A stretch of DNA of 64,000 bases, taken from positions 32,001 to 96,000 of the forward strand of contig JAHLWS010000065.1 of NCBI GenBank assembly GCA_019057795.1, read 5' to 3'. The position numbers and the translations under genes were made by a program. Below the pieces are notes generated by a model. The model made no database searches. It saw only the letters and a list, made by a program, of their open reading frames with translations, and had not been told where the DNA came from. Position 1 is the stretch's first letter, and each line of letters begins with the position of its first letter. Shown piece by piece: positions 36,152 through 56,766 of the stretch. The stretch comes from Promethearchaeota archaeon. GTDB taxonomy: Archaea > Asgardarchaeota > Lokiarchaeia > Sigyniarchaeales > SOKP01.

Positions 36152-36205
36152 GTGAAAGCTAATAACATAATTATAGTCCCTGAAACTCATTGGGATCGCG
36201 AATAG
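36152..36205 (+). pseudogene. Orphan copy of alpha-mannosidase exon 1 (VKANNIIIVPETHWDRE*)
   Basis: 15/17 aa and 39/51 nt identical to 37642..37692; ends at the codon where the micro-intron sits. Confidence 0.85.
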
Positions 36206-36207
36206 AA

Positions 36208-37365
36208 CTATTTTTGTTGAGATCGAGAGGTTTTTATATCCCATTCCTCACAGAGTTTATAAAAGGAACCAATGGATACTTTAAATTTTTTAATTAAATG
36301 GGAAATTGGATACTTATCAATTAAACATTGTAGATTCTCCTTATTTACTACTGCTTCTTTTAGGCATGGAATCACATTCATATCTCTCTCATTAAATGTT
36401 CTCCTCTTTCTGGGCATACTGTTTTTATAGTTCCTCATCATTTCATTAAATAATAATGCCCCTAATGATAATCTCCAATGTGATTTAGTGGCAATAATAT
36501 TATCAAAATTACTTATTTTACCTTTCTCATATTGAATTTTAACTTCATATTGAATATTTAATTTCAACCTTATTTGTTCGAGAAATTCTTTAGAGCCACT
36601 TGTTATTCTAGTACTGTTAGCATTGCCATCCCCATCATAATAACCAAGAACCCAGGCCAAAAATAACTTATGATTAATAGGAGTTTTTTTATTAAAAATT
36701 ATAGGAATCGATTTTCTTAAAGACTTTGAACTTGAGAACCCAATATTCATTAAATCTTCAACCATTGGTTTACATCTAAAACGCAAATAAGCCAATTGAT
36801 ATGTTCTCCATTCTTCTTTATTTTTCTTTGTTCTATCTCGTTCTTTAATAAGTATAGGATCAAGATTTAGGGCTTTACAAAATCTTATTATTTGATCTTT
36901 ATCCTTAATTGAAAGCTCCATAGATATCAAATACCAAGGTTTTCCCCGATAATCCATTACTACAGAACCGTCTGCGTATAAAAAACCTAACCAATAAGCT
37001 TTTTCAAGTGTATCTACTTTCCTAAAAAAATCAGCTCTAAGATCATCGCTATATTGCTGATTTGAGTATTCTTTCAAGTTTTTATTTAACTCTTGATATC
37101 TTTTAATAAATAATAAACAATTAATTACTTTATTTCCTAAGCTTTTCTTTAGGTTATTTTGGAATTTTTCTAAATTTTGCTCTGAAAATTTGTAATTTGG
37201 ATTATATCCACGAACTTTCGAGTTGGTGATTCTTTGTTTTAGATCTGATAAATAAGTCGATCCATGTCCTAAAAGTATACTAGCTTTGGGTAAAGGTCCT
37301 AACTCATTTACCAAATCGTCTATTAAATTCAAAGTGCTATAAACACTTTCTTTTTTAACAGTCAT
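36208..37365 (-). CDS. Double-motif LAGLIDADG homing endonuclease
   Basis: AYWLGFLYADGSV and AWVLGYYDGDGNA motifs; likely start MTVKK at 37365 (ORF open to 37467). Confidence 0.85.
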   Translation of the reverse strand: MTVKKESVYSTLNLIDDLVNELGPLPKASILLGHGSTYLSDLKQRITNSKVRGYNPNYKFSEQNLEKFQNNLKKSLGNKVINCLLFIKRYQELNKNLKEYSNQQYSDDLRADFFRKVDTLEKAYWLGFLYADGSVVMDYRGKPWYLISMELSIKDKDQIIRFCKALNLDPILIKERDRTKKNKEEWRTYQLAYLRFRCKPMVEDLMNIGFSSSKSLRKSIPIIFNKKTPINHKLFLAWVLGYYDGDGNANSTRITSGSKEFLEQIRLKLNIQYEVKIQYEKGKISNFDNIIATKSHWRLSLGALLFNEMMRNYKNSMPRKRRTFNERDMNVIPCLKEAVVNKENLQCLIDKYPISHLIKKFKVSIGSFYKLCEEWDIKTSRSQQK

Positions 37366-37638
37366 AATTTGAATATGGAATTGATCTTTATAAACTGAAT
37401 AACATCCATAATTTTTTCTAATATCGTTTCTAATATTCATTCCAATAAGAATTAGGGCTCCAATCACGCATTCAAGGTCTTTTATACATAGAAATTAGAA
37501 AACTTATTTAGTTGATATTCACCCTCTTGGGCAGCTTAAATATTGTATTATTCCTCTCTTTTCAGCAAGTAAGCAATATAAAACATCAAAAATTATGAGT
37601 ATTAAACTATGAAAAAGAAAAAAAGATGATAAAAGACT

Positions 37639-40464
37639 ATGGTGAGAGCAAATCATATAATAATTGTTCCTGAGACCCACTGGGACCGTGAAACTTTGTA
37701 TAATTAATATACAAAGCACGATTGGTATCTCCCGTTTCAAGAGTATAGAGCAAAACTAGTTCTCATGATGGATAAGCTCTTGGATATCCTAAGAAGCGAT
37801 CCAGATTATAAAAATTTCACTCTTGATGGACAAACTATTCCGATAGAGGACTATCTTGAAGTCCGACCTGAATTTGAAGATGAGATTAAAAAGTATGTAA
37901 AAGAAAGGCGGCTTTCGATTGGGCCTATGTATATTTTACCAGATGAATTTTTGGTAAGCGGCGAATCTTTGATTAGGAACTTAATAATTGGACACCAAAT
38001 TGCTAAGAGATTTGGAAGGGTTATGAAAGCAGGTTACATCCCTGATCCTTTTGGCCACATTGCTCAATTACCTCAAATACTTCAAGGATTTGAAATCCCT
38101 TCGATTTTATTCTGGCGAGGGTTTGGTAACGAATTCGTAGAAAATAACCTAAACATTGAATTTATTTGGAATTCCCCCGGAGATTCTAATTCTATTTTGG
38201 GAATATTTTTGAAGCAGAGCTACGGTTCGGTTGCTGATCTTAATTTATCAAAAAGAAGCGGAAAATATAAACTGGCGCTTCATAAGATAAAAAGGGTTGT
38301 TTCTGAGTTCGAAAAATTCACAGCTACATCCTATGTTCTTTTGAATAGCGGTTCAGATCATCACGAAGCTCGATCGGAGATTCCTGAAATAGTTAGACAA
38401 TGGAACGAAATGTATCCCGAGAAACTTTTAGAACAAAACGATTTTGAATATTATGTCGATAAAGTATTACATAGTAATCCACAGTTAAAACAGTTTAAAG
38501 GCGAATTAAGAGGTGGAAAGTACGCACATCTACTTTCAGGGGTATTTTCAGCTCGTATGTGGATCAAGCAGAGAAACACGGCAATCGAATATCTGTACGA
38601 AAAATATACGGAACCCTTATCAACAATTATATGGTCTCTCGATAAATATAAGGAATTTAATTACCCTCAAGCTTATATGCTCACAGGTTTGAAATGGCTT
38701 ATCAAAAACCACCCTCACGATAGCATATGTGGCTGTTCTATTGATCAGGTTCACAAAGAAATGGAGACTAGGTTTGATTGGGCGGAGCAAATCGGTAATG
38801 AAGTGTTTAAAAATTCAATATTGTATCTATACAATCTGATTACAGTTGAGGAAGACGAGAAAAAAATTCCGATCGTAGTATTTAATCCTCTTCCTTGGAA
38901 ACGTAAAGATATCGCAAATTTCCACATAATATCCAACACTAAAAAAGCTGGTTTTAAAAATCCAGACGCTTTCAAAATTCTCGACTCCGAAGGAAACGAG
39001 ATCGCATACCAATACGTTCAAATCAGCGAAGAGCCAAGATATAGATTAATTGGATCGGTTAGTTATTATTGCTCGTTTTTAGCCGAGGTTCCTGCTTGTG
39101 GATATAAGTGTTATTATATCGTACCAGGAGAAAAACCCGAAGAACCTGTAGTAAAGAGTAAAAAATTGAAGTTAGGTATAAATAGCTTAGAAAATCAGTT
39201 CTACAAAATCAACATAAGTTTTAAGGGACAAATCGACGTTTTAGATAAGGAAAGTAAAGTTTTGTACGAAAATATTTGTTATTTTGAGGATATAGGAGAT
39301 TGGGGGGATGAATATGACTTTTCGGGGCCATATGAAAATCAAACTGATTTAAAATTCACCTCAGAAGATCTGAATATTCTAGAAATAGCACCGTTTTTAG
39401 ACGGGGTCACCCAAAAAACGATTAGAATAAGAGCAAATCTCAATTTACCTACTTCTTTAACCGAGGATAGATATAGTAGAGACGAATATCTGATTTCAAA
39501 CTTAATCGATATCTATATAACGGTATATAAGGACATTAAACGAGTTGATTTTAAGATTGAATTAGAAAACAATAGTAAAGACCACCGAATACGAGTACTT
39601 TTTCCTTCAAAAATTAAATCTAAAAATGTAGATTCCGATGGTCATTTTTATGTCATTTCGCGAGATGTTGAGATGCCAAAATCTGAGAAATGGGCTCAAC
39701 AACCCGTACCTACTAACCATCAGAAAGATTTTGTCTCTGTTAACGATACATCAAGAACTTTTTCGGTTATAAACAAAGGATTACCCGAATATGAGGCAGT
39801 TATAAATAAAGATGGAACGATTTCGCTAGCTATTACCTTACTGCGGTGTATTGAATGGCTTTCAAGACACGATTTTACCTCGAGAAGAAGTAACGCAGGT
39901 CCGGACCTAAATACTCCCGAAGCTCAATGTCTTGGAAAGCATACTTTCGAACTTTCTCTCGTTATCGAAGGAAACAAACCTAATTGGTTAGATTCGAACG
40001 CTCACATAAAAGGTAAAGAATTTAACAATCCTTTTGAGGTTGTGGTTCCCTCGATAGTTAGAACCTCAATAAGAGCTTCGAATAAAGTCGTTTTAGCCCC
40101 TTTTGGACTAATTTCATATTTTAAACCATCAACTCGTCAACCTTTAAAACCTTATTTACCTACCAAATTAAGCTTCCTTGAAATCGATAACACAAAAATA
40201 ATGCTTAGTGCTTTGAAAAAATCGGAAAAGGGAGAATCTTTAATCGTTAGAGTTTATAACATCTCTTCAACCACTCAAAAAGCAAGGTTAACGTTACACG
40301 AGAAAACTTCCATCAAAAGTGCGGATATTGTAAACTTTTTGGAAGAAAAGCCAGAAAACGAAATTAAGGCGAAAATTGTTTCAAGTAAAGGGAATCATCT
40401 TGATCTAACTCTGGAACCGCACATAATAGTAACGATAAAACTTGAGCTTGATAATAATTATTAA
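37639..40464 (+). CDS. GH38 alpha-mannosidase (MngB-like); join(37639..37692,37723..40464)
   Basis: The spliced N-terminus MVRANHIIIVPETHWDRE|WYLPFQEYRAKL restores the HWDREWY Zn motif; LDGQT, PDPFGH and HDSICGCS motifs also present. Confidence 0.9.
37693..37722 (+). other. Putative 30-nt BHB mRNA intron
   Basis: CGUG-AA^A-CUUUGUAUA-AUUAA-UAUACAAAG-CACG-AU^U: perfect 9-bp stem, 4-bp central helix, two 3-nt bulges; contains an in-frame TAA. Confidence 0.85.
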
Positions 40465-46256: not shown

Positions 46257-46823
46257 TTGGTGAAAAATTTGGTTTTATTGGTTGCTATTACGGGCGCTAG
46301 TGGTGCTAACCTAGCGATTATCTTGCTACAACAACTGAAGAAAAAAGAAGTTGAAACTGAATTAATAATATCAAAAGTAGCTGAGAAAATCATTGACATT
46401 GAAACTGATTATAAACTAACTGAAATAATTGATTTATCAACAAAGTATTATGATGTTGATGATTTAACGGCAAACCCCGCCAGTGGTTCTTATAAAATTG
46501 ATGCAATGGTAATTATTCCGTGCTCGATGAAATCCTTGGCTTCTATTGCTAATGGTTATGCAGATAACTTAATAACCAGAGCCGCAGATGTAACAATTAA
46601 AGAACGAAGAAAACTCATCTTAGTAGTTCGAGAAACTCCTTTCAGTGCGATTCACCTTGAAAATATGCTTAAATTAGCAAGAATTGGAGTTATAATCGCG
46701 CCTCCAATTCCTTCTTATTATATCAAACCTGAGAGTATTAATCAACTTAACGAATATTTCGTAGGAAGAATACTTGATCATATAGGTATTGAAAGCGGGA
46801 TAAAGAGATGGGGGAGCTATTGA
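46257..46823 (+). CDS. ubiX: Flavin prenyltransferase
   Basis: AITGASG, PASGS, PCSMKSL, RAADV and RETP motifs. Confidence 0.93.
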   Translation: MVKNLVLLVAITGASGANLAIILLQQLKKKEVETELIISKVAEKIIDIETDYKLTEIIDLSTKYYDVDDLTANPASGSYKIDAMVIIPCSMKSLASIANGYADNLITRAADVTIKERRKLILVVRETPFSAIHLENMLKLARIGVIIAPPIPSYYIKPESINQLNEYFVGRILDHIGIESGIKRWGSY

Positions 46824-48721
46824 TTTACCCATTGATATAGTTCTCCAAGCAGAACTCGCTTGTCCTTATTGTCCTTAAGATTTTCTACGTTTGTTATATT
46901 CGTTAACCATAAGGAAGAACGCAACTCGTCTTTCAATGTTTTTATTTCTTTAATTGTGTGAATAGAAGTACTGTTGTTGTAATCTTTCCAAGCGGATAAT
47001 AGAAATTTATAAGCAAATCCTCCGATATCAGCGCCTAATGCGATGCTTTTAGCGATATCTACTCCATTCCTTAGACCACCAGTTGCTATAATCAATTTTT
47101 TAGTAACTTCTCTTACATAAATAATGGTTAGAGGTGTGGGGATACCCCATTCTCTAAAAGAATCTGCGAGTCTTCTCGTATATTTTTCAAAACTAAAATT
47201 ATCTCGGTGAGATTCAATTGCAGCAAAACTAGTACCTCCAGTGCCTCCGACATCAAATCCATCGAAACCTATTGAATCAAGACTCAAAGCTAATTCCTTA
47301 TTGAAGCCAGTTCCCACTTCTTTGGCGATTATTGGAATGTTAATTTCTTTTCGAATTTTTTGAAATTTTTCAAAGAAATTTTTATAAGATATGTTTCCGT
47401 TGCTTTGGACTAATTCGTGTAAAGCATTAAAATGAATGGCCATTACATCTGCTTTTACCATTTCAATACATTCAATAAAGTCTTCTTTTTTAAAAGTGGA
47501 AGAATTGATTTGGCCGATTCCTATATTTCCAATTATTGGAATGTTAGGCGCAACTTCACGAACAATCTCAAAAGACTCAAGGGTAGAGGGATCTTCCAAG
47601 CCTATGCGTTGACTTCCTACGCTCATTATAATGTTTTCTTCTTCTGCAGCTTTAGCTAAAATTCTGTTTATTGCTTTAGAGATTGGATGCCCACCGGTTA
47701 TAGCGGAAATACAAATTGGAGCGGAAATCTTTTTATTAAAAAACATTGTTGCGATGTCAATATCATCTAATTCGACTTCCGGAAGCGAATGATGAATTAA
47801 TTTTATGTCATCAAAATAGTTTTTTACGTGTTGGACATTAGATATGATTGGAATCTTGAGGTGTTCTAACTTTCTCATATAAATCTCTGATAACCTTTTT
47901 TCGTCATGAATTCCACTAATGTTCGTACAGATTAATTTTTGATTGCTTAAGGCCTTAAAGATGTTACCGTCAGTCAGACCGTTTATAACCTGAACTGGAA
48001 TATTTAATCTACAAATTTCTTTAATCGCATGAATTTTTCCTCTAATACTTCCAGTAACATCAATCTTATTTCCTAAATCGGCTAATTTAATTTTATCTAA
48101 CTCTTCAAGACTAATTTCTGAGGCTAATTTTATATTTTTTTTATCATTTTTAATATCTTCAACAAAAATTCCATCTTTGTCAACAGCAAAAATAACTTTA
48201 GAAATACAATATTTTTTCAAGTTTTTACACAATTCTAAAATTATGCGATCTCCAGAAATTATTGAAAAATTGCCTTCTTTATCAAGAATAATATCCCCAT
48301 ATAAAACGGGTAGAATTCCAAGATCAAGCGAAGTTTCAATTGGCTCAATAGATTCAAAAAAAATCTCGTTTAAATGTTTGATAAAAATACTTGAAGGTTG
48401 AATGGAAAGAGCGGGATACTTATTTTCTAAAAACTCTTCAATTATTTGCGAATTGAATTTAATCATCGCTTCGTGCGTTTTAGTTAGCCCAAATATCTGA
48501 TTCTTAATAGAAATATTGAGTCCTTGAGAAATGTTATATTTTTTAGCAATCGGGTGTCCAAAGGAACCTCCTCCATGGATTAAGATTAACTTTTTATTAG
48601 CATCTATTATTTGTTGAATTGCGCTTTTTACAACTTCTTTTCTGATAGAAAAAGGAATATTTTTATCAGTTAATAAACTTCCACCCAATTTTAACAGAAA
48701 TATTTCGTTACTATTTTTCAA
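46817..48721 (-). CDS. Fused isopentenyl phosphate kinase + type 2 IPP isomerase
   Basis: N-half KLGGSLLTDK, HGGGSFGH, SGD, DVTGS; C-half RKLEH, SAITGG, GSQR, KEVGTG, GGTSFAAIE, TGGLRNG. Confidence 0.9.
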   Translation of the reverse strand: MKNSNEIFLLKLGGSLLTDKNIPFSIRKEVVKSAIQQIIDANKKLILIHGGGSFGHPIAKKYNISQGLNISIKNQIFGLTKTHEAMIKFNSQIIEEFLENKYPALSIQPSSIFIKHLNEIFFESIEPIETSLDLGILPVLYGDIILDKEGNFSIISGDRIILELCKNLKKYCISKVIFAVDKDGIFVEDIKNDKKNIKLASEISLEELDKIKLADLGNKIDVTGSIRGKIHAIKEICRLNIPVQVINGLTDGNIFKALSNQKLICTNISGIHDEKRLSEIYMRKLEHLKIPIISNVQHVKNYFDDIKLIHHSLPEVELDDIDIATMFFNKKISAPICISAITGGHPISKAINRILAKAAEEENIIMSVGSQRIGLEDPSTLESFEIVREVAPNIPIIGNIGIGQINSSTFKKEDFIECIEMVKADVMAIHFNALHELVQSNGNISYKNFFEKFQKIRKEINIPIIAKEVGTGFNKELALSLDSIGFDGFDVGGTGGTSFAAIESHRDNFSFEKYTRRLADSFREWGIPTPLTIIYVREVTKKLIIATGGLRNGVDIAKSIALGADIGGFAYKFLLSAWKDYNNSTSIHTIKEIKTLKDELRSSLWLTNITNVENLKDNKDKRVLLGELYQWVNQ

Positions 48722-48734
48722 TTTTAATTAACAC

Positions 48735-49701
48735 TCATCCTATCATTGTTCTCCAGGCGTCATAGCCTTCTTTTTCGATAGCCTTGGCGATAGATTCTTG
48801 TATTTCTTCATTTTCTGCTAAAGCGATTACTAAACCACCCCGACCCGTCCCCGTCATTTTAGCTCCAACCGCTCCATTTTTTAGTGCTATTTCTACCAAT
48901 TTATCGTTTATTTCTCCTGAAACTGTGATTCTTTGAAGTAATTTGTGGTTTTGATTCATTAATTTGCCTATAGTGGTAATATCACCTTCAAGCAATGCTT
49001 TTTTTGCTTTTTCTGATAAATCCTTATATTCGTTTAGTATCTTCTCAAATTCTTCTGAATTAGTTTCCTTTAAACGCCGAACATCAGCAACTACTTCCGT
49101 TGTTGAAGCTGTTATTCCTGAATTTGCGATTGTCAAGAGCATCTTTCTTGGCGATTGAAGGAAGTCCATCGTATTTTTTCCACCACTTAAATTTTTCACA
49201 AACCAAATCAAACCACCATAAGTCGAAGCCGTGTTATCAATACCAGAAGGGGTTCCGTGATAAGCCTTCTCTCCTTCGTAAGCGGCTTCGTTTATCTTTT
49301 CATCGTCTAACTTTAGATTAAAGCTATCGTTGATTGCACGAGCGAGAGAAGTACATTGAGCGGCAGAAGCACCAACTCCACTCGTAGCGATTAAATCTCC
49401 TGTGAAAGTGATTTCAAGTTTTTGACTCTCTGTATCTATTTTTAAATAATGGACTACATTGCGAATAGATTGCATTGCCTCATCGTATTTCTTTTTTTTA
49501 TAACCCGGTGTAGCGGGTCTCTGATCGTCGACAGTCCAGTTTTGTCCATTAACAACTTTAACATCTGCGGTTGTATAGGAACCTAATGCCGAAGCAATAG
49601 CGGGAAGACCATAAACTACAAAATGATTGCGTCTACTTCCGAAGTTGGAAGTAAATTTCGCCAAAAAGAATGGTCTTACCATATCCTTTTCCAGTTCCCG
49701 T
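48735..49701 (-). CDS. mvk: Mevalonate kinase; join(complement(49657..49701),complement(48735..49625))
   Basis: Spliced N-terminus (M)GTGKGYGKTILFGE|HFVVYGLPAIA; GVGASAA, HGTPSGIDN and KMTGTGRGG motifs; probable ACG start after GGAGGTG. Confidence 0.88.
49626..49656 (-). other. Putative 31-nt BHB-like mRNA intron
   Basis: GGCG-AA^A-UUUACUUCC-AACUUC-GGAAGUAGA-CGCA-AU^C: 9-bp stem with one G-U pair, 3 of 4 central pairs; frameshifts the gene unless removed. Confidence 0.8.
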
Positions 49702-50091
49702 TTATTTCACCTCCACAGTACCTTTTGAACCATTTACAATTATTTTTTGTCCAGTTTTAATACAATTAATATCAATTTTATCTACGCATGGAATTTCACT
49801 AATTATGCAACCCACCGCTATTATAGTATCGATCTCTTCGTTTACGATTGCTACTGGAGCCATGTTGTTTTTTTTCATCCGGTACATCGTATACGACCCT
49901 ACAGTCGAGCCTTTACCAGTAGGAAAGACTAGAACTTTTCCTGTAATGGATTGTCCCTCAAGATCGTGCCCAACCTCAACAACCATACCGGTGTCCGGAT
50001 CTATGCCACCATAAAATGAAATCCCATCTTTAGTTACTATCGCTTCTGCCTCAGCAATTCCTTTATAGATTTTTCTTCCTTTTAGCTTCAT
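49702..50091 (-). CDS. Phosphomevalonate dehydratase small subunit (AcnX swivel domain, DUF126)
   Basis: ISFYGGIDP and GKGSTVGS motifs; MVA cluster context. Confidence 0.88.
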   Translation of the reverse strand: MKLKGRKIYKGIAEAEAIVTKDGISFYGGIDPDTGMVVEVGHDLEGQSITGKVLVFPTGKGSTVGSYTMYRMKKNNMAPVAIVNEEIDTIIAVGCIISEIPCVDKIDINCIKTGQKIIVNGSKGTVEVK

Positions 50092-51296
50092 TTAATCGCC
50101 TCCTCAACGCATTGTTCCATTGAGCCAATTTTTACTTTGAATTTATTCTTTGCGCGTCCGTAATAACACGCCTTTGCTGAATCTACCATGATTCCCTTGA
50201 AGCGCCCCTTAATTGGAGCAACAACGCAACAGGTATCTGCAGCAAATTTTGCTCCAGCATCTTCAATAATTTTAGAATAACCAGCTTCGTCTGCGATTTT
50301 CTTTGTAGGTCGAGCAGTAGTAATCCAAAATTCTTTCTTTACTTTTTTTCCTTCTAACAATTTTGCAATTTTAGCGATTTCGTGAATTGAAGCGTGAGGA
50401 CAACCTAGACTTACAAAATCTATCTCAAGATCATCGTCAATAAGCTCAGCACGAGTCTTATCTAAATCGTCCTGATTAATTTCAATAACAATTTCACTTG
50501 GTTTAGTGTATTTATTATACTCGGGAGTAATTCCTTCCATATGGAATAATGCTGTTCCACCATAGGTAGCGACGGAAGCGCAAAAAGACTTAAGCTCTTC
50601 AACGGTAGCAGAAGGGATTCCCGCAATATAAGGGACTTTTTTTCCTAGTTTTACTAGTTTATCGCCAATCAATTTTCCCAGCACGCCAAATTCGTCAGTA
50701 TTTTTAATCGAAGCGTTTATCTTAAACAAGACTTGGGCGTGACGATTTTCGTCCAAATGATAACCGTATTTAGGCGTTTTACCGGTTAAAGCCGCTGCCA
50801 ATGCGCTTGGTCCCCCCTCTCGATTCGTTCGAGCCCCAATAACGGAGTTGGAATAACAAACAGCGCTACTTTCGGCCCAAGCAATGTGTTGGCCATAATG
50901 AGGCGCGTTTCCAATTAAATAAGGTGTACAAGAACACGTCGTAATTATTCCCATTTTTGCAAAAACATCTATAGCACGATTCTGATTTTTAGCAAATTCT
51001 TCGTCAATTCCTAACGCTCTCCAATTTTCCCGATCCATTCCAGCGGGATTTAAAGTAGTTAAAACTCTGACCTTCCCATCTTCTGCCATTTCGTTTAAGA
51101 ATTCCAACCCTGCTTCGCCAAGATTAGCGTAGGAAACTCCTGCTATTTGAACTCCATGAACATCAACCATACATTCAGCACCAAATATTTCGCCTAATGT
51201 GGTTAATATTTCCATGGATTTCTGGACGGACTTTCCATGCTTTCCATCAAGCATATCTTTTTCTATTTGTTCTAATCTCATAATCCTCAATTGCAT
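50088..51296 (-). CDS. Phosphomevalonate dehydratase large subunit (aconitase X, DUF521)
   Basis: TLNP, CSCTPY, WAESSA, GARTNREGGPS, LGCPH, DTC and DSAK motifs. Confidence 0.9.
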   Translation of the reverse strand: MQLRIMRLEQIEKDMLDGKHGKSVQKSMEILTTLGEIFGAECMVDVHGVQIAGVSYANLGEAGLEFLNEMAEDGKVRVLTTLNPAGMDRENWRALGIDEEFAKNQNRAIDVFAKMGIITTCSCTPYLIGNAPHYGQHIAWAESSAVCYSNSVIGARTNREGGPSALAAALTGKTPKYGYHLDENRHAQVLFKINASIKNTDEFGVLGKLIGDKLVKLGKKVPYIAGIPSATVEELKSFCASVATYGGTALFHMEGITPEYNKYTKPSEIVIEINQDDLDKTRAELIDDDLEIDFVSLGCPHASIHEIAKIAKLLEGKKVKKEFWITTARPTKKIADEAGYSKIIEDAGAKFAADTCCVVAPIKGRFKGIMVDSAKACYYGRAKNKFKVKIGSMEQCVEEAIK

Positions 51297-51300
51297 TTTA

Positions 51301-52602
51301 TTAAAAATATTTGTTCAAATCTACTCTTGGGAAATCAGCTCTATCAAAACTCTTTCCTTTAGTTATAAGTGGTTTTGTTAAATCAAATCCCATTTTAGTT
51401 GTCATTTTCGTTCCCGGTTCTGCGCTAGGATCTAAACTACTTCCGGGTTCCTTATCTTTAATTATCATATTAACATTCCCTTGAAAGCGAGTTGCCATTG
51501 CCCATTCCACAGATAACGGGTCGTAAATATCAATATCTTTATCTACAATAAATATGTGTTTGCAACTACTATGGCCAATAAATGCACCATGAATAGCTTT
51601 TTTACCATCTTCTTCTGAATTTTTATCAATTTGTACAATTGCATGTAGCCATGAACATCCTCCAGGATTTATATTAACATCTAAGCACTTAACTCCAGAT
51701 TCGTTCACTTTATTGAAAATAGTGGGTTCTCTTGGCATACCCATCAATATTTTATGCTCAAGCGCACCAGGTAATAAAGCTTGCCAAATCGCGTCCTTTC
51801 TATGAGTTATTTTTTTAACTTCAAAAACTGGTTCTTCTCTTACAACATCATAAGTTTCTGTTAAGTCGACAAAAGGCCCTTCAGCGTGTTTTTCTTCTAA
51901 ATAGACTCGCCCTTCTAATACAAATTCTGCTTCTGCAGGGATTAAAAGATCAACTGAATTTGCTTTAACAACTTTTATTGGCTCTAATGCATTTGCAATA
52001 TGTAATTCATCAACTCCAATATCCACAGAAGTAGCACCGGCAATTAAAATGTTAGGAGTGTTACCTATACAAAAAGCAACATCTAATTCGCTATTTTTTT
52101 CTAAAAACGTATGAAAATGTCGACCTCTAACTATTCGAGTAGAAAATTTGTCTTTGGAAAATTGCATAGCCCGATGGAAATCCATGTTTTGTCCATAATC
52201 GGGGTCTCTTGTGATTACGACAGCAGAACTTACGTAATTCCCGCCGTCCTTTTCGCAATGAAATAAAATTGGTAATTTATCTAAATCTACGCTTGATTCT
52301 ATAACTTCTTGACAAAGAGCGTTTGATACGATTTCTGGTTCTGAGCGTTCATTTATTGCTTTTGAAAGCATTGGTATGATGTCTGCGGGAGTTACATTGA
52401 AATACGAAGCAATTACATTCTTAGTACAGAACATGTTGCCAACCAACCTGAATTCAGATTCTTTTACATTATTAAACATTAAGGGGGTTGGTTCTTTCTC
52501 TTTTAATATACCAGAAATCTCTAATTTCTTCGAAGTCTCGACATCTACCTTTTGAAGGAGTCCTTTCTCATCAATTTTATTTATATAATCTCTAAATCCC
52601 AT
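51301..52602 (-). CDS. UbiD-family decarboxylase, probable anhydromevalonate phosphate decarboxylase
   Basis: EGPF.D and GSSLDPS motifs; lies between HMGR and AcnX. Confidence 0.88.
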   Translation of the reverse strand: MGFRDYINKIDEKGLLQKVDVETSKKLEISGILKEKEPTPLMFNNVKESEFRLVGNMFCTKNVIASYFNVTPADIIPMLSKAINERSEPEIVSNALCQEVIESSVDLDKLPILFHCEKDGGNYVSSAVVITRDPDYGQNMDFHRAMQFSKDKFSTRIVRGRHFHTFLEKNSELDVAFCIGNTPNILIAGATSVDIGVDELHIANALEPIKVVKANSVDLLIPAEAEFVLEGRVYLEEKHAEGPFVDLTETYDVVREEPVFEVKKITHRKDAIWQALLPGALEHKILMGMPREPTIFNKVNESGVKCLDVNINPGGCSWLHAIVQIDKNSEEDGKKAIHGAFIGHSSCKHIFIVDKDIDIYDPLSVEWAMATRFQGNVNMIIKDKEPGSSLDPSAEPGTKMTTKMGFDLTKPLITKGKSFDRADFPRVDLNKYF

Positions 52603-52692
52603 AAATATCGTCTCAAAATTTTATTTATCGTGATGCAGTTATCAATTATATTACTTTTTATTAGAGGAGTTTATGAAACACTTTTTATAAAA

Positions 52693-53985
52693 CTAAAGGT
52701 TTTTACTTTTAACTATTTCCTTTAAAACTTCCTTTGCGTAATCTACTCTTATTTTTTTATCTTCTACTATTTTATTTGCAACCTCTTCAATCAAATTATC
52801 AGGTACACCTGCTAATTTCGCAATATTACGAGAGTGAAGTGTCATATGACCTTTTTGGATACCTTCTGATGCTAAGGCTCTTAAGGCGGCTACATTCTGG
52901 GCTAAACCTAACGCTGCAGCAATTTGAGATAACTCTTCTGCACTCTTAACACCTAAAATTTTCAATGCTAGACGTGCCATTGGATGGATTTTTGTCATTC
53001 CTCCAACAATTCCAAGAGCTAGAGGGACTTCTATCTCGCCAACTAAATTACCGTCTGAGTCAGATTTAAATTTCGTAAGAGGTTTGTATTTGCCACTCAA
53101 AGAAGCATAAGCGTGAGCTCCTGCTTCAATAGCACGAGTGTCGTTTCCTGTTGCTAAAGTTAACGCTATTATTCCATTCATTATCCCTTTATTATGGGTC
53201 GTTGCCCTATAGGGATCGGCAAGCGCAAATTCATAAGCGTTTAAAATGCCCTCAACTACTTCTTCTCCACCCAACAAGTTCTTATCAAATACTGCTTTAC
53301 ATTTCGCAATTCGATGTGTAGCCAAGTTGGATACGATTCGCAAATATATCTTCCCTTCACTAATTTCTTCTATATAAGGACTTACGGCTTCAGCCATCGT
53401 ATTTACTACATTAGCACCCATAGCGTCTAATACATTAACCAGAAGGTGAAGGATTACCATTTTGCCTTTTTTGGTTTCTATTTCTCGAACCTCTATATCT
53501 AGAGCACCGCCACCTAACTTATTTAGTAAGGGGTCTTGCTCATTTGCAATTTTTAAGATTTTTTCCTTATTTCTCACTAAAATTTCCTTAGCAGCAACAA
53601 TATCTTTTAATTGAGTTATTTGTATTTGAGAAATCATGATTGATTTAACTTCTTCAGACTGAAAACCCCCGTTTTTTCTTGCTATCTTAGCTGCGTTAGA
53701 AGCAGCGGCCACAACTGAAGGTTCTTCAATCACCATGGGCAAAATATAATCTTTTCCATTGATCCTAAAGTTTAAAGCAATACCCAAGGGCAATTGGTAA
53801 CTCCCAATTACATTTTCTATTAGCGTGTCAATTTGACTGGGCGTAAAATACCCCAAAGCTTGCAATAGTTTAACTTCTTCCTGTTTTAAGTTAATTAATT
53901 TAGCTAATTGATGTTGGCGTTCTTCTAAGGATAGCTTATAAAAACCCGAAATATCTGAACGAATTTCTTGCATCTTTTTATTCAC
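52693..53985 (-). CDS. HMG-CoA reductase (class II)
   Basis: ENVIG, EEPSVVAA, DAMGAN, THNKGIMNG, GNDTRAIEAG and GHMTLH motifs. Confidence 0.93.
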   Translation of the reverse strand: MNKKMQEIRSDISGFYKLSLEERQHQLAKLINLKQEEVKLLQALGYFTPSQIDTLIENVIGSYQLPLGIALNFRINGKDYILPMVIEEPSVVAAASNAAKIARKNGGFQSEEVKSIMISQIQITQLKDIVAAKEILVRNKEKILKIANEQDPLLNKLGGGALDIEVREIETKKGKMVILHLLVNVLDAMGANVVNTMAEAVSPYIEEISEGKIYLRIVSNLATHRIAKCKAVFDKNLLGGEEVVEGILNAYEFALADPYRATTHNKGIMNGIIALTLATGNDTRAIEAGAHAYASLSGKYKPLTKFKSDSDGNLVGEIEVPLALGIVGGMTKIHPMARLALKILGVKSAEELSQIAAALGLAQNVAALRALASEGIQKGHMTLHSRNIAKLAGVPDNLIEEVANKIVEDKKIRVDYAKEVLKEIVKSKNL

Positions 53986-54119
53986 ATTAATCTTAATTTG
54001 AAATTATTTATATCATCTTCTAATTGTTTTGCCTTAGATAATTTTGAACTTTTAGTTGATAGGATAGGAAGGTGAAAAATAGAAGATGTCATTATTAACT
54101 ATAATTCTAAAACATAAAT

Positions 54120-55748
54120 TTAATAAATTTTTTGAACGGGATAATACAAAGGACTCCAATTTAACAACCCGATTGCGTTGAAGTTTGTTTCTTCTTTATT
54201 TTCAAGGCGTCTTATCTCGTACTCTAAACTAGCTCCCTGTTTAACGTTACCAGCAATCCTTACTAAACCGTTATAAAGGTAATTAAGATTGTTTTCGTTA
54301 GGATTTACTATAGGTTCTGACTTTAACACCGCATATAGAGGAAAAAACTTCTCGTGTAAGCCAGAGTGACCTTTCGGACAATGGTTTAAACCTTCTATAT
54401 TAGGAAGAATGCATCCTTCGTCGCAAAAATGAAGAGTAAAACCTCTCTTATTATTCTTTTCGTGTTCGACTATTTCTCCTAAAACTGTTTTCGGTAAGAA
54501 TTTACCTGCCTTTATCTTCTCGTACTCTTGTATAGTCTTACGTTCTTTATTTTCTATGAAATCATTAATCTTGGGATGTTTGCTTACAATTTCTTTAAAT
54601 CTTTTCTGTACTTTTAGTAATCCAGAAATGCAAGTAGCTCCTGAGCCGTAAGAGCCGAAATAGATGACGTCGTTAACGTGACTATATTCTTCCATTATGA
54701 AGACTATTTGACTCCAGATGCTCGCGTTGTAGCTGTTCCCAAAATGCGAAGGCACTCTTAATTGTGGAAGTACTTTACTTTTAACATTTGCTATAAGTTT
54801 GTTTGATATGGTTTCTAATGTTTCGGAGGAATAACCCCTCTCTTTCAGTTTCAAATATAACCACTCTGGTAAAACAGTAATATCGTGCATAAGATAATCA
54901 AGCTTCTTAAGGATGGACGATTTTATTTGATTTTTTTTAACCTTTGGAAGGTTCTGAATATGTTTTATCCAGCGTTTTTGGATTATCTGTTGCATAATTT
55001 TTATTGGTAGTTTAGAAAATGGTGCGTGAAATGTGTAGTAATCAGCGTGAAAATCCCCTATATTATTAATTAAATCGTCGTATGCTTTTAATTGAAAATT
55101 GAGATAAGTATTTACTGAATAATGACCAAAAACTTTAGCATTTTTTTCATTAGCGGGGCGGAAAAAATCGTCTACATTTCCCGAAACCTTTCCAAATTTT
55201 TCACCAAAGGTCGCAACCCTAGGATTTTTTGAAATAACTAAAGCAATTGCTCCTGAACCTTGAGTAGCCTCACTTGGACTGCCTACTTGATACGAAGAAA
55301 TATCAACACTTATAACAAGAGCTTTTTTTATAATATCTTTTTCTACTAAAGCAATCGCGTTGAGAAGGGCTAAAGTCCCACCAGCACACGCATTATAAAC
55401 ATCTTGACAAACAGAATTTGTTGAAATCCCTAACAATTCGGCGAAGATGTTCGAAACAGACTTCACAGCATAGGTAATCGTTTCTGTTCCTACGAATAAC
55501 GCGTCAATGCTTTTAGGAGATATGCCTCCCTTTACTAACGCTTGATATCCTGCCTTTATTCCTAGAGAAATGATATCCTCGTTAACCTCTGGTATTCTCA
55601 TTTCGTGAACCATCAATCCTTTCTTAAATTTCCCAGGATCAACATTCCGCTCAACAGCGAGGTCCTTTAATTTGATGTAATATTTTGGGGCATAAAACCC
55701 TACACTATCGATACCGATGTCACAAAACAAATAATCGTTGTTTATCAT
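54120..55748 (-). CDS. HMG-CoA synthase with C-terminal Zn-ribbon/OB-like (DUF35-like) extension
   Basis: GTET, NACAGG, EATQGSGA, FHAPF, GNSYNAS and SYGSG motifs; tail HFCDEGC...HCPKGH. Confidence 0.85.
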   Translation of the reverse strand: MINNDYLFCDIGIDSVGFYAPKYYIKLKDLAVERNVDPGKFKKGLMVHEMRIPEVNEDIISLGIKAGYQALVKGGISPKSIDALFVGTETITYAVKSVSNIFAELLGISTNSVCQDVYNACAGGTLALLNAIALVEKDIIKKALVISVDISSYQVGSPSEATQGSGAIALVISKNPRVATFGEKFGKVSGNVDDFFRPANEKNAKVFGHYSVNTYLNFQLKAYDDLINNIGDFHADYYTFHAPFSKLPIKIMQQIIQKRWIKHIQNLPKVKKNQIKSSILKKLDYLMHDITVLPEWLYLKLKERGYSSETLETISNKLIANVKSKVLPQLRVPSHFGNSYNASIWSQIVFIMEEYSHVNDVIYFGSYGSGATCISGLLKVQKRFKEIVSKHPKINDFIENKERKTIQEYEKIKAGKFLPKTVLGEIVEHEKNNKRGFTLHFCDEGCILPNIEGLNHCPKGHSGLHEKFFPLYAVLKSEPIVNPNENNLNYLYNGLVRIAGNVKQGASLEYEIRRLENKEETNFNAIGLLNWSPLYYPVQKIY

Positions 55749-56040: not shown

Positions 56041-56766
56041 TTGGAAGAATTAAAGGACATACCCGCAAATAAATTGCCTAAACACATTGGTTTAATTCTA
56101 GATGGTAATCGTAGATGGGCAAAAAAAAATTTGCTTGAAGCAAATGTGGGCCATTTAATAGGGTACGAGAATTTAAAAGAGAGGTTATTTGACTTTTTTG
56201 ACGCAGGAATTCATTATTTGAGCATTTACGCCTTGTCGCTTGAAAACGCACGGAAAAGAAGTGTTAACGAACTTAGATATATTTTTAAGATAATTTTAAA
56301 AGCAGTGGACACGGTAATAAATGAATCAACTGTAAGAGAAGAGAAAGTCAAATTTAACGTAATTGGCCGAATACATTTGCTACCTGAAGATGTCCAGGAG
56401 AAAATCAAAGAATTAATTGAATTTACAAAGGACCATAACCAAAATTTCATTAACTTGTGCATTATGTATGACGGCCAAGAAGAAATCGTAGACGCTATGA
56501 AAAAGATAACGGAGGATAATATAAAATCCGAAGATATTACGCGAGATTTAATCAAGAGTTATTTATATACGAAAAGTTTTCCTGAGGTAGATTACATAAT
56601 TCGCACTGGCATGAGCGATGGCGCTAGAATCTCGGGATTTCTGTTATGGGACGCATCTTATGCAGAGTTCAAATTTAGAACTGACCTATGGCCTGATTAT
56701 AATAAAGAAATGATAATTGAAGATATTAAAGATTATTTGAAGAGAAATCGAAGAAAAGGTAAATGA
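56041..56766 (+). CDS. uppS: cis-prenyltransferase (undecaprenyl/dolichyl diphosphate synthase)
   Basis: HIGLILDGNRRWA, RISGFLLW and RRKG motifs. Confidence 0.92.
   Translation: MEELKDIPANKLPKHIGLILDGNRRWAKKNLLEANVGHLIGYENLKERLFDFFDAGIHYLSIYALSLENARKRSVNELRYIFKIILKAVDTVINESTVREEKVKFNVIGRIHLLPEDVQEKIKELIEFTKDHNQNFINLCIMYDGQEEIVDAMKKITEDNIKSEDITRDLIKSYLYTKSFPEVDYIIRTGMSDGARISGFLLWDASYAEFKFRTDLWPDYNKEMIIEDIKDYLKRNRRKGK

What the first reader, a model, noticed from the sequence alone, without database searches (positions are those of the whole stretch)
49621..49661. Second BHB micro-intron, inside mevalonate kinase of the lipid operon
Seen (minus strand): GKTILFGE and HFVVYG, the conserved GHMP-kinase N-terminal motif, are separated by a 31-nt insert that frameshifts the gene. 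It has the same design as the mannosidase intron: exon ending GAA, bulge AA^A, a 9-bp stem (UUUACUUCC/GGAAGUAGA), central helix GGCG/CGCA (3 of 4 pairs), and bulge AU^C. The two inserts differ in sequence but share geometry, cut phase and A...AU ends. Inference: the gene lies in an otherwise intact mevalonate operon and is likely needed for lipid synthesis, so the insert is probably spliced rather than a lesion. It could link isoprenoid synthesis to EndA/RtcB activity.
Basis: partly seen in the sequence, partly recalled or inferred. Interest (0 to 1): 0.93.

Follow-up and report, generated by a model that had tools for sequence, protein, structure and literature searches.

The report
Spliced mini-intron in Asgard mevalonate kinase
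The only mevalonate kinase gene of this Loki-type Asgard archaeon is broken by a 31-base insert shaped like a tRNA intron, and an RNA contig from a close relative lacks exactly those 31 bases, so these microbes very probably splice protein-coding mRNAs with their tRNA-splicing enzymes, which I found reported in papers for only one other archaeal coding gene.

Summary
Confirmed. Insert 49626-49656 (minus strand, 31 nt) splits GKTILFGE|HFVVYG in the genome's only mevalonate kinase. Unspliced, the gene gives 22 aa; spliced, 311 aa from an ACG start. Of 63 distinct orthologs, 34 carry a 28-31 nt insert at the same boundary and 29 lack it cleanly. Carriers keep the central helix and inner stem through compensatory changes, and the clades tested stay under purifying selection. 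A metatranscriptome contig 92.5% identical to this genome skips exactly 49626-49656. It falls inside a clade whose six known genomes all carry the insert. Two other RNA runs hold the unspliced form. The genome encodes an (αβ)2-type EndA and RtcB, and holds at least nine such mRNA inserts; rpl11 has four sites across the genus. Best reading: a relaxed bulge-helix-bulge mRNA intron spliced by EndA/RtcB (0.88). Cleavage is not shown, and an intron-less strain behind the single junction contig is not excluded. A lipid-specific regulatory role is unsupported. This scan found the same mvk insert earlier in other genomes (e1-2110050, e1-4761705); their summaries mention no spliced RNA. In print I found only crenarchaeal cbf5.

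The parts
49626..49656 (-). 31-nt mRNA intron, phase 0, between the Glu and His codons of the GE|H motif
   Evidence: skipped exactly in an RNA contig of run X2
49657..49701 (-). mvk exon 1 (15 codons, ACG start, ends GKTILFGE)
   Evidence: the last 10 codons are near-invariant in 34 carriers
48735..49625 (-). mvk exon 2 (296 codons plus stop)
   Evidence: TIGR00549 208 bits, over the cut-off; full length in 33 of 34 carriers, the other being a locus cut short at a contig gap or break
49659..49662 (-). Central helix H, exon strand (GGCG)
   Evidence: Gly codon is GGC in 32/34 carriers vs 8/29 non-carriers; U-A compensatory pair in L026
49656..49658 (-). 5' bulge AA^A; cut after the second base = 5' splice site
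   Evidence: matches the joint seen in RNA; first base A in 34/34
49632..49655 (-). Intron helix h' (9 bp) with 6-nt loop
   Evidence: mean 7.4/9 pairs in carriers vs 3.4 shuffled; 4 pairs with two-sided changes
49628..49631 (-). Central helix H, intron strand (CGCA)
49625..49627 (-). 3' bulge AU^C = 3' splice site
   Evidence: matches the joint seen in RNA; first base A in 34/34
49605..49677 (-). Distal 8-bp exon-exon helix (49677-49670 with 49612-49605) that may stand in for the missing outer helix
   Evidence: predicted; no two-sided changes, so unproven
49707..49714 (-). Shine-Dalgarno GGAGGTGA, 5 nt before the ACG start
   Evidence: sequence; same place in orthologs with ATG/TTG/CTG/GTG/ACG starts
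46257..55748 (.). Archaeal-type mevalonate operon around mvk: hmgS, hmgR, ubiD, acnX large and small, mvk, ipk-idi2 fusion, ubiX
   Evidence: NCBIfam for ubiD, DUF126, AcnX-like, IPK+IDI2 and ubiX; hmgS and hmgR recognised from their translations only
37693..37722 (+). Second insert of the same kind (30 nt, in-frame stop) in the GH38 mannosidase gene
   Evidence: recovered by the motif-free census, helix 4/4; also in G005; intron-free junction in loose ends of RNA runs X2 and X3

Best explanation
The insert is an intron of the archaeal tRNA type (relaxed bulge-helix-bulge) in the mvk part of the operon transcript. Proposed steps: (1) The insert folds into a 9-bp hairpin, and its 3' tail pairs with exon GGCG to make the 4-bp central helix between two 3-nt bulges (structure supported by conservation and covariation; not probed). 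(2) The (αβ)2 splicing endonuclease, which has the broad-specificity L1/CSL loop, cuts after the second base of each bulge (inferred from geometry and from known EndA chemistry). (3) RtcB joins the exons (inferred). (4) The joined RNA reads GE|HF and encodes a 311-aa kinase from an ACG start (the joined RNA is seen as one contig in a close relative). It is one of at least nine such inserts in this genome. Such inserts are gained at sites able to form the motif and are repeatedly and precisely lost across the genus SOKP01. They behave as tolerated passengers of the tRNA-splicing machinery rather than as a lipid-specific switch.
For: An RNA contig (X2, 1592 nt, depth 51.5) has the joint 49625->49657, skipping 31 nt with no ambiguity in position. 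It differs from this genome at 78/1114 sites. The five nearest genomes, all insert carriers, differ at 65-84; the nearest insert-less ones at 173-186. 34 of 63 orthologs carry a 28-31 nt insert at the same boundary. The central helix has >=3/4 pairs in 34/34 carriers vs 21% in shuffles. 84% of cells pair in register vs 40-49% when slid; 5 pairs have two-sided changes. The exon synonymous site is constrained only in carriers (GGY 34/34 vs 15/29). dN/dS is 0.12-0.19 in carrier clades and 0.09-0.15 in non-carrier clades. mvk is single-copy in an intact operon. EndA has an α subunit with Tyr/His/Lys, closest to PDB 3p1z/3ajv with the loop region aligned, plus a β subunit; RtcB is present. Kaneta 2018 (PMC5829648) reports (αβ)2 EndA with the L1 loop in Asgard. 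A motif-free census found 7 gene-breaking inserts of 29-36 nt, all with helix >=3/4 at the homology-defined boundary, whereas ordinary in-frame indels mostly score 0-3. rpl11 has four insert sites in the genus.
Against: The junction rests on one contig in one run, from a different species (about 92.5% nt identity). Precise loss is common (13 parsimony changes, at least 3 forced by strong branches), so an insert-less strain is possible. RNA runs X3 and X6 give contigs that cross the site unspliced; these could be precursor, DNA or another allele. The motif lacks a proximal outer helix, has a G-A mismatch in the central helix in half of the carriers, and is not the minimum-energy fold. No cleavage assay and no excised or circular intron were seen. 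Kin are not independent, so the counts overstate significance.
Confidence: 0.88

Rival explanations
1. The insert is removed from the RNA, but by another nuclease or mechanism than EndA/RtcB (an unknown endonuclease, or RNA-catalysed).
For: The motif is relaxed and is not the lowest-energy fold. No enzyme assay exists.
Against: The RNA joint falls exactly after the second base of each bulge, which is the EndA rule. The same 4-bp helix / 3-nt bulge register recurs in unrelated genes. 31 nt is far too short for a self-splicing intron, and the ends are not GU-AG.
Confidence: 0.04
2. The RNA is not spliced; ribosomes cross the insert by frameshifting, readthrough or hopping, or start at ATG 49682.
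For: In this genome the exon-2 frame is open from ATG 49682. 31- and 28-nt inserts both need +1. Unspliced RNA contigs exist.
Against: 30-nt alleles with in-frame stops would need a different event. Any recoding would leave about 10 residues inside, or remove, the GKxILFGEH motif. There is no matching landing codon for hopping. 13 of 34 carriers have a stop inside the insert in the exon-2 frame. An RNA contig lacks the insert.
Confidence: 0.03
3. The insert is a lesion or a transcription hairpin, mvk is dead in carriers, and the RNA contig came from an insert-less strain.
For: 46% of orthologs lack the insert. The start codon is ACG rather than ATG.
Against: Purifying selection is equal in carriers and non-carriers. 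There is no backup mvk. ACG also occurs in insert-less alleles L040, L042 and L028. Exon 1 is near-invariant, and there is exon-intron covariation.
Confidence: 0.02
4. The insert is an assembly or sequencing artefact, or is removed at DNA level in part of the population.
For: All sources are metagenome assemblies.
Against: 34 independent assemblies carry divergent versions of it at one site. No joined copy exists in this genome. The probable DNA run X1 has depth over the site and shows no joint.
Confidence: 0.02

Closest known systems
cbf5 pre-mRNA intron of Desulfurococcales and Sulfolobales (Watanabe 2002; Yoshinari 2006; Yokobori 2009, PMC2738675)
   Same: Short intron in a coding region; unconventional BHB; cuts after the second bulge base; hetero-oligomeric EndA; variable interior; secondary precise losses.
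   Different: cbf5 is one site in one RNA-modification gene. Here there are at least nine inserts in eight unrelated genes of one Asgard genome, up to three per gene with micro-exons, and different sites in different species. Cleavage has been shown for cbf5 but not here.
Non-canonical BHB introns of archaeal tRNAs, including heavily interrupted Asgard tRNA genes (bioRxiv 10.64898/2026.10.13.758758)
   Same: Motif, size range, enzymes, repeated gain at motif-compatible sites.
   Different: The host is an mRNA under a reading-frame constraint. That preprint does not mention mRNA (0 occurrences).
BHB site in the 5' UTR of Haloferax HVO_1309 (PMC7714728)
   Same: EndA acts on an mRNA.
   Different: It lies in the UTR and is not a coding-region intron. 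That 2020 paper names cbf5 as the only other mRNA case.
IRE1-cut HAC1/XBP1 mRNA introns of eukaryotes (own knowledge)
   Same: Short frameshifting intron removed by a protein endonuclease and a tRNA ligase (RtcB in animals).
   Different: A different nuclease and recognition motif, and stress-regulated. No homology is claimed; no regulation is shown here.

Membership tests
Archaeal BHB (EndA-spliced) introns | 4-bp central helix between two 3-nt bulges on opposite strands | tested here: met
   3/4 pairs here; 3/4 or 4/4 in 34/34 carriers; covariation
Archaeal BHB (EndA-spliced) introns | Splice sites after the second base of each bulge | tested here: met
   The homology-defined boundary and the RNA joint both fall there
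Archaeal BHB (EndA-spliced) introns | Intron-side helix h' | tested here: met
   9/9 here, mean 7.4/9 in carriers
Canonical hBHBh' subclass | Exon-exon outer helix h of at least 2 bp next to the bulge | tested here: not met
   1 bp only; a distal 8-bp helix is predicted. File as relaxed HBh'-like.
Archaeal BHB (EndA-spliced) introns | Host encodes an EndA able to cut relaxed motifs, and a ligase | tested here: met
   α and β EndA, loop region aligned with crenarchaeal-type structures; RtcB
Archaeal BHB (EndA-spliced) introns | Joined RNA exists where the DNA has the intron | tested here: inconclusive
   Exact joined contig in RNA run X2 from the all-carrier clade, but no DNA of the same population
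Archaeal BHB (EndA-spliced) introns | Cleavage by EndA; excised, often circular, intron | not testable with these tools
   Needs an assay or raw small-RNA reads
Group I / group II self-splicing introns | Catalytic core of hundreds of nucleotides | tested here: not met
   28-38 nt
Spliceosomal introns | GU-AG or AU-AC ends | tested here: not met
   Ends are AU...AU here and variable among orthologs

The most novel reading that the evidence does not exclude
Loki-type Asgard archaea of genus SOKP01 run routine, genome-wide mRNA splicing through EndA/RtcB: tens of coding introns per genome, multi-intron genes with micro-exons, and continuing gain and precise loss. This happens in a cell without a nucleus, where ribosomes should reach the intron before the endonuclease. 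The balance of spliced and unspliced RNA may also vary with conditions (spliced contig in X2, unspliced in X3 of the same study), which would give a global post-transcriptional control.
Probability: 0.6. Interest if true: 0.92.

Novelty: new variant of a known kind. Interest (0 to 1): 0.83.

Why it matters
Archaeal coding-region introns are documented, in the papers I could search, for one gene (cbf5). A lineage among the closest prokaryotic relatives of eukaryotes that carries many such introns, in lipid-synthesis, ribosomal and carbon-fixation genes, makes a long-standing question testable: how mRNA splicing can coexist with translation without a nucleus. It also offers a natural experiment in intron gain and precise loss. 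In practice, these genes will be annotated as frameshifted, truncated or missing in SOKP01 genomes, which distorts metabolic reconstructions and marker-gene phylogenies. These are not ancestors of spliceosomal introns; the closer analogy is endonuclease/RtcB splicing of XBP1.

Tried and rejected
Two ab initio genome scans for BHB plus frame-joining (one search timed out) gave little or no excess over decoy geometries (151 vs 106-126, then 21 vs 20-30). In this 31% GC genome they cannot count introns, and I draw nothing from them. RNAalifold on the 17-sequence alignment returned exon-exon helices, not the BHB; I therefore tested the named structure directly. ARAGORN gave only 29 partly mis-called tRNAs, so the comparison with tRNA introns was uninformative. 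No close copy of the insert exists elsewhere in the genome (one 8-mismatch hit, not examined), so no source was identified. The ATG 49682 start, ribosomal hopping, pseudogene status and a second mvk on C49 (GalK-like) were each considered and rejected. The intron-free mannosidase junction in X2/X3 is only a loose-end consensus, and the DNA allele of those strains is unknown, so it is weak support. Contig depths were not used to rank expression or splicing efficiency. Seven literature searches found no report of Asgard mRNA introns; most subscription papers are not covered. No inserts were seen in 361 kb of a complete genome of another family, in its mvk, or in rpl11 of other families; this means not found in those searched, not absent.

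Full report
Observation. On the minus strand, 15 codons ending in GKTILFGE (49701-49657) are followed by a 31-nt insert (49656-49626) and then by HFVVYG (from 49625), which runs open to the stop at 48735. Only the exact excision restores GE|HF and a 311-aa protein; unspliced, translation ends after 22 aa. The insert forms a 9-bp hairpin, and its tail CGCA can pair with exon GGCG (3 of 4 pairs), leaving 3-nt bulges AA^A and AU^C. One of 200,000 shuffles of the insert does as well. The outer exon-exon helix beside the bulges is 1 bp, and the minimum-energy fold uses a competing pairing, so the motif is a relaxed one. The start codon is ACG behind a strong Shine-Dalgarno sequence. Orthologs have ATG, TTG, CTG, GTG or ACG at that place, and ACG also occurs in insert-less alleles.

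Organism and gene. Relatives are titled Promethearchaeota/Promethearchaeia, and a same-genus genome matches accession SOKP01000033, so this is a Loki-type Asgard archaeon of genus SOKP01 (inference). Exon 2 passes the mevalonate kinase cut-off and is the only locus in the genome that does. The next hit has galactokinase-like motifs (my reading of the sequence). Neighbours are UbiD, AcnX large and small, an IPK-IDI2 fusion and UbiX, with HMG-CoA synthase and reductase recognisable upstream. This is the archaeal-type mevalonate pathway (established knowledge), so the kinase is expected to be needed.

Orthologs. Of 63 distinct orthologs, 34 carry an insert at the same codon boundary (30 of 31 nt, 3 of 30 nt, 1 of 28 nt) and 29 read cleanly through. 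The central helix has at least 3 pairs in 34/34 carriers (21% in shuffles), and the inner stem averages 7.4/9 (3.4 shuffled). On 29 distinct 31-nt alleles, 84% of cells pair in register against 40-49% when slid, and five pairs show two-sided changes, among them C-G to U-A across exon and intron in L026 (relatedness inflates the shuffle test). The Gly codon that supplies the helix is GGY in all carriers but in only 15 of 29 non-carriers. dN/dS is 0.12-0.19 in carrier clades and 0.09-0.15 in non-carrier clades, and the exon-1 motif is near-invariant. The alternative frame from ATG 49682 is closed by a stop inside the insert in 13 of 34 carriers. On a quick protein tree, the deepest branches within the genus-level clade carry the insert and outgroups lack it; presence needs 13 changes, at least 3 forced. 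One gain with repeated precise losses fits, but this is not proven. Two reverse-transcriptase genes are in the genome, a possible route of loss (inference).

RNA evidence. In metatranscriptome X2, a 1592-nt contig of depth 51.5 covers 48512-49625 and 49657-50134 and skips exactly the 31 nt, with no ambiguity of position. It differs from this genome at 78 of 1114 sites in the first part. The five nearest genomes, all carriers, differ at 65-84, and the nearest non-carriers at 173-186. The RNA therefore comes from inside an all-carrier clade. Contigs from RNA runs X3 (same study) and X6 cross the site without a gap, and the probable DNA run X1 has depth there and no joint. The simplest reading is precursor and product. 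Limits: this is one contig from another species, contigs drop minority forms, and a recent loss in an unsampled strain is possible. Loose ends in X2 and X3 at 37719 read as mannosidase exon 1 joined to exon 2 without its 30-nt insert; both genomes of this clade that I could check carry that insert. This is weaker support.

Machinery. The genome has two EndA genes and one RtcB. One EndA keeps the Tyr/His/Lys catalytic pattern and best matches PDB 3p1z/3ajv (Aeropyrum pernix, from memory), including the N-terminal loop with its lysine. The other lacks the His and is read as the β subunit. PMC5829648 states that Asgard archaea have (αβ)2 EndA with the L1 loop that permits relaxed substrates.

A system, not a single case. 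A motif-free census used proteins from 1.5 Mb of four relatives (about 1,100 loci covered). It found seven gene-breaking inserts of 29-36 nt in this genome: mvk, mannosidase, cdhD, a cold-shock gene, a chelatase, a cobalamin adenosyltransferase-like gene and one unnamed gene. Six have a 4/4 central helix and mvk 3/4, against 0-3 in shifted registers. Where several cuts give the same peptide I chose the best-pairing one, which favours the motif; for mvk, the mannosidase and the chelatase the cut was unique. rpl11 adds two more. Across the genus it has four different sites within 60 nt and up to three per gene, while other families sampled have none. A relative has one in the polyprenyl synthase gene that is intact here. 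Extrapolation suggests a few tens per genome (inference). This spread and patchiness argue against a lipid-specific switch.

Mechanism. Shown: the insert, its conserved geometry, selection on the spliced protein, the enzymes, and a joined RNA in a close relative. Inferred: EndA cleavage after the second base of each bulge, RtcB ligation, and initiation at ACG. Open: how folding and cutting win against ribosomes that start 45 nt upstream and stop inside the intron.

Comparison. It works like, and on the testable features belongs to, the archaeal BHB introns in relaxed form; the canonical outer helix is not met. The closest case is the cbf5 pre-mRNA intron (PMC2738675). PMC7714728 names it as the only coding case and adds a 5' UTR site. 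A 2026 preprint on Asgard tRNA introns does not mention mRNA. Seven searches found no report of Asgard mRNA introns. Earlier agents of this scan reported the same mvk insert and others in other genomes. I re-derived the comparative evidence here, and the exact joined RNA contig is the addition as far as their summaries show.

Verdict. A real, very probably spliced BHB-type mRNA intron (0.88 for EndA/RtcB splicing), and a new variant of a known kind because of its scale and host lineage. Interest 0.83.

Noticed in passing
window 49701-49699 (minus): mvk starts with ACG behind a strong Shine-Dalgarno sequence in 10 of 63 orthologs, with and without the intron; CTG in one. A candidate non-canonical start codon in Asgard archaea.
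   Followed up: partly
window 36152-37722: A LAGLIDADG gene (PF14528, weak hit) separates an orphan mannosidase exon 1 from a recoded exon 1 plus intron. Relative G005 (L217) has the orphan-type exon 1 joined directly to intron and exon 2, so the intron is older than the LAGLIDADG insertion, which sits at the exon-intron boundary.
   Followed up: partly
G000 contig C73, minus strand, rpl11; loci L205-L234: Four intron sites within 60 nt of rpl11 across the genus, 0-3 per gene, 28-38 nt, nearly all with a 4/4 central helix.
   Followed up: yes
G000 C49 and C79 inserts: The central helices are palindromes (CATG, CTAG) repeated directly at both ends of the insert, which suggests intron birth by short tandem duplication. 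The mvk insert does not show this.
   Followed up: no
L119 (G008:C41), polyprenyl synthase gene: A 30-nt hairpin insert with a stop in the ILDGNRR motif; the ortholog at window 56041-56766 is intact. The BHB register is poor (helix 2/4 with a good stem, or 4/4 with a weak one).
   Followed up: partly
window 48735-49701: This MVK family is far closer to PDB 2hfs (E 5e-72; Leishmania, from memory) than to other solved mevalonate kinases (E about 1e-29), and differs from the MVK of sister families (about 33% identity).
   Followed up: no
window 46817-48721 (minus): Isopentenyl phosphate kinase fused to type 2 IPP isomerase in one 634-aa ORF.
   Followed up: no
whole genome: ARAGORN finds only 29 tRNAs, many mis-called with odd introns, consistent with heavily interrupted tRNA genes.
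   Followed up: no
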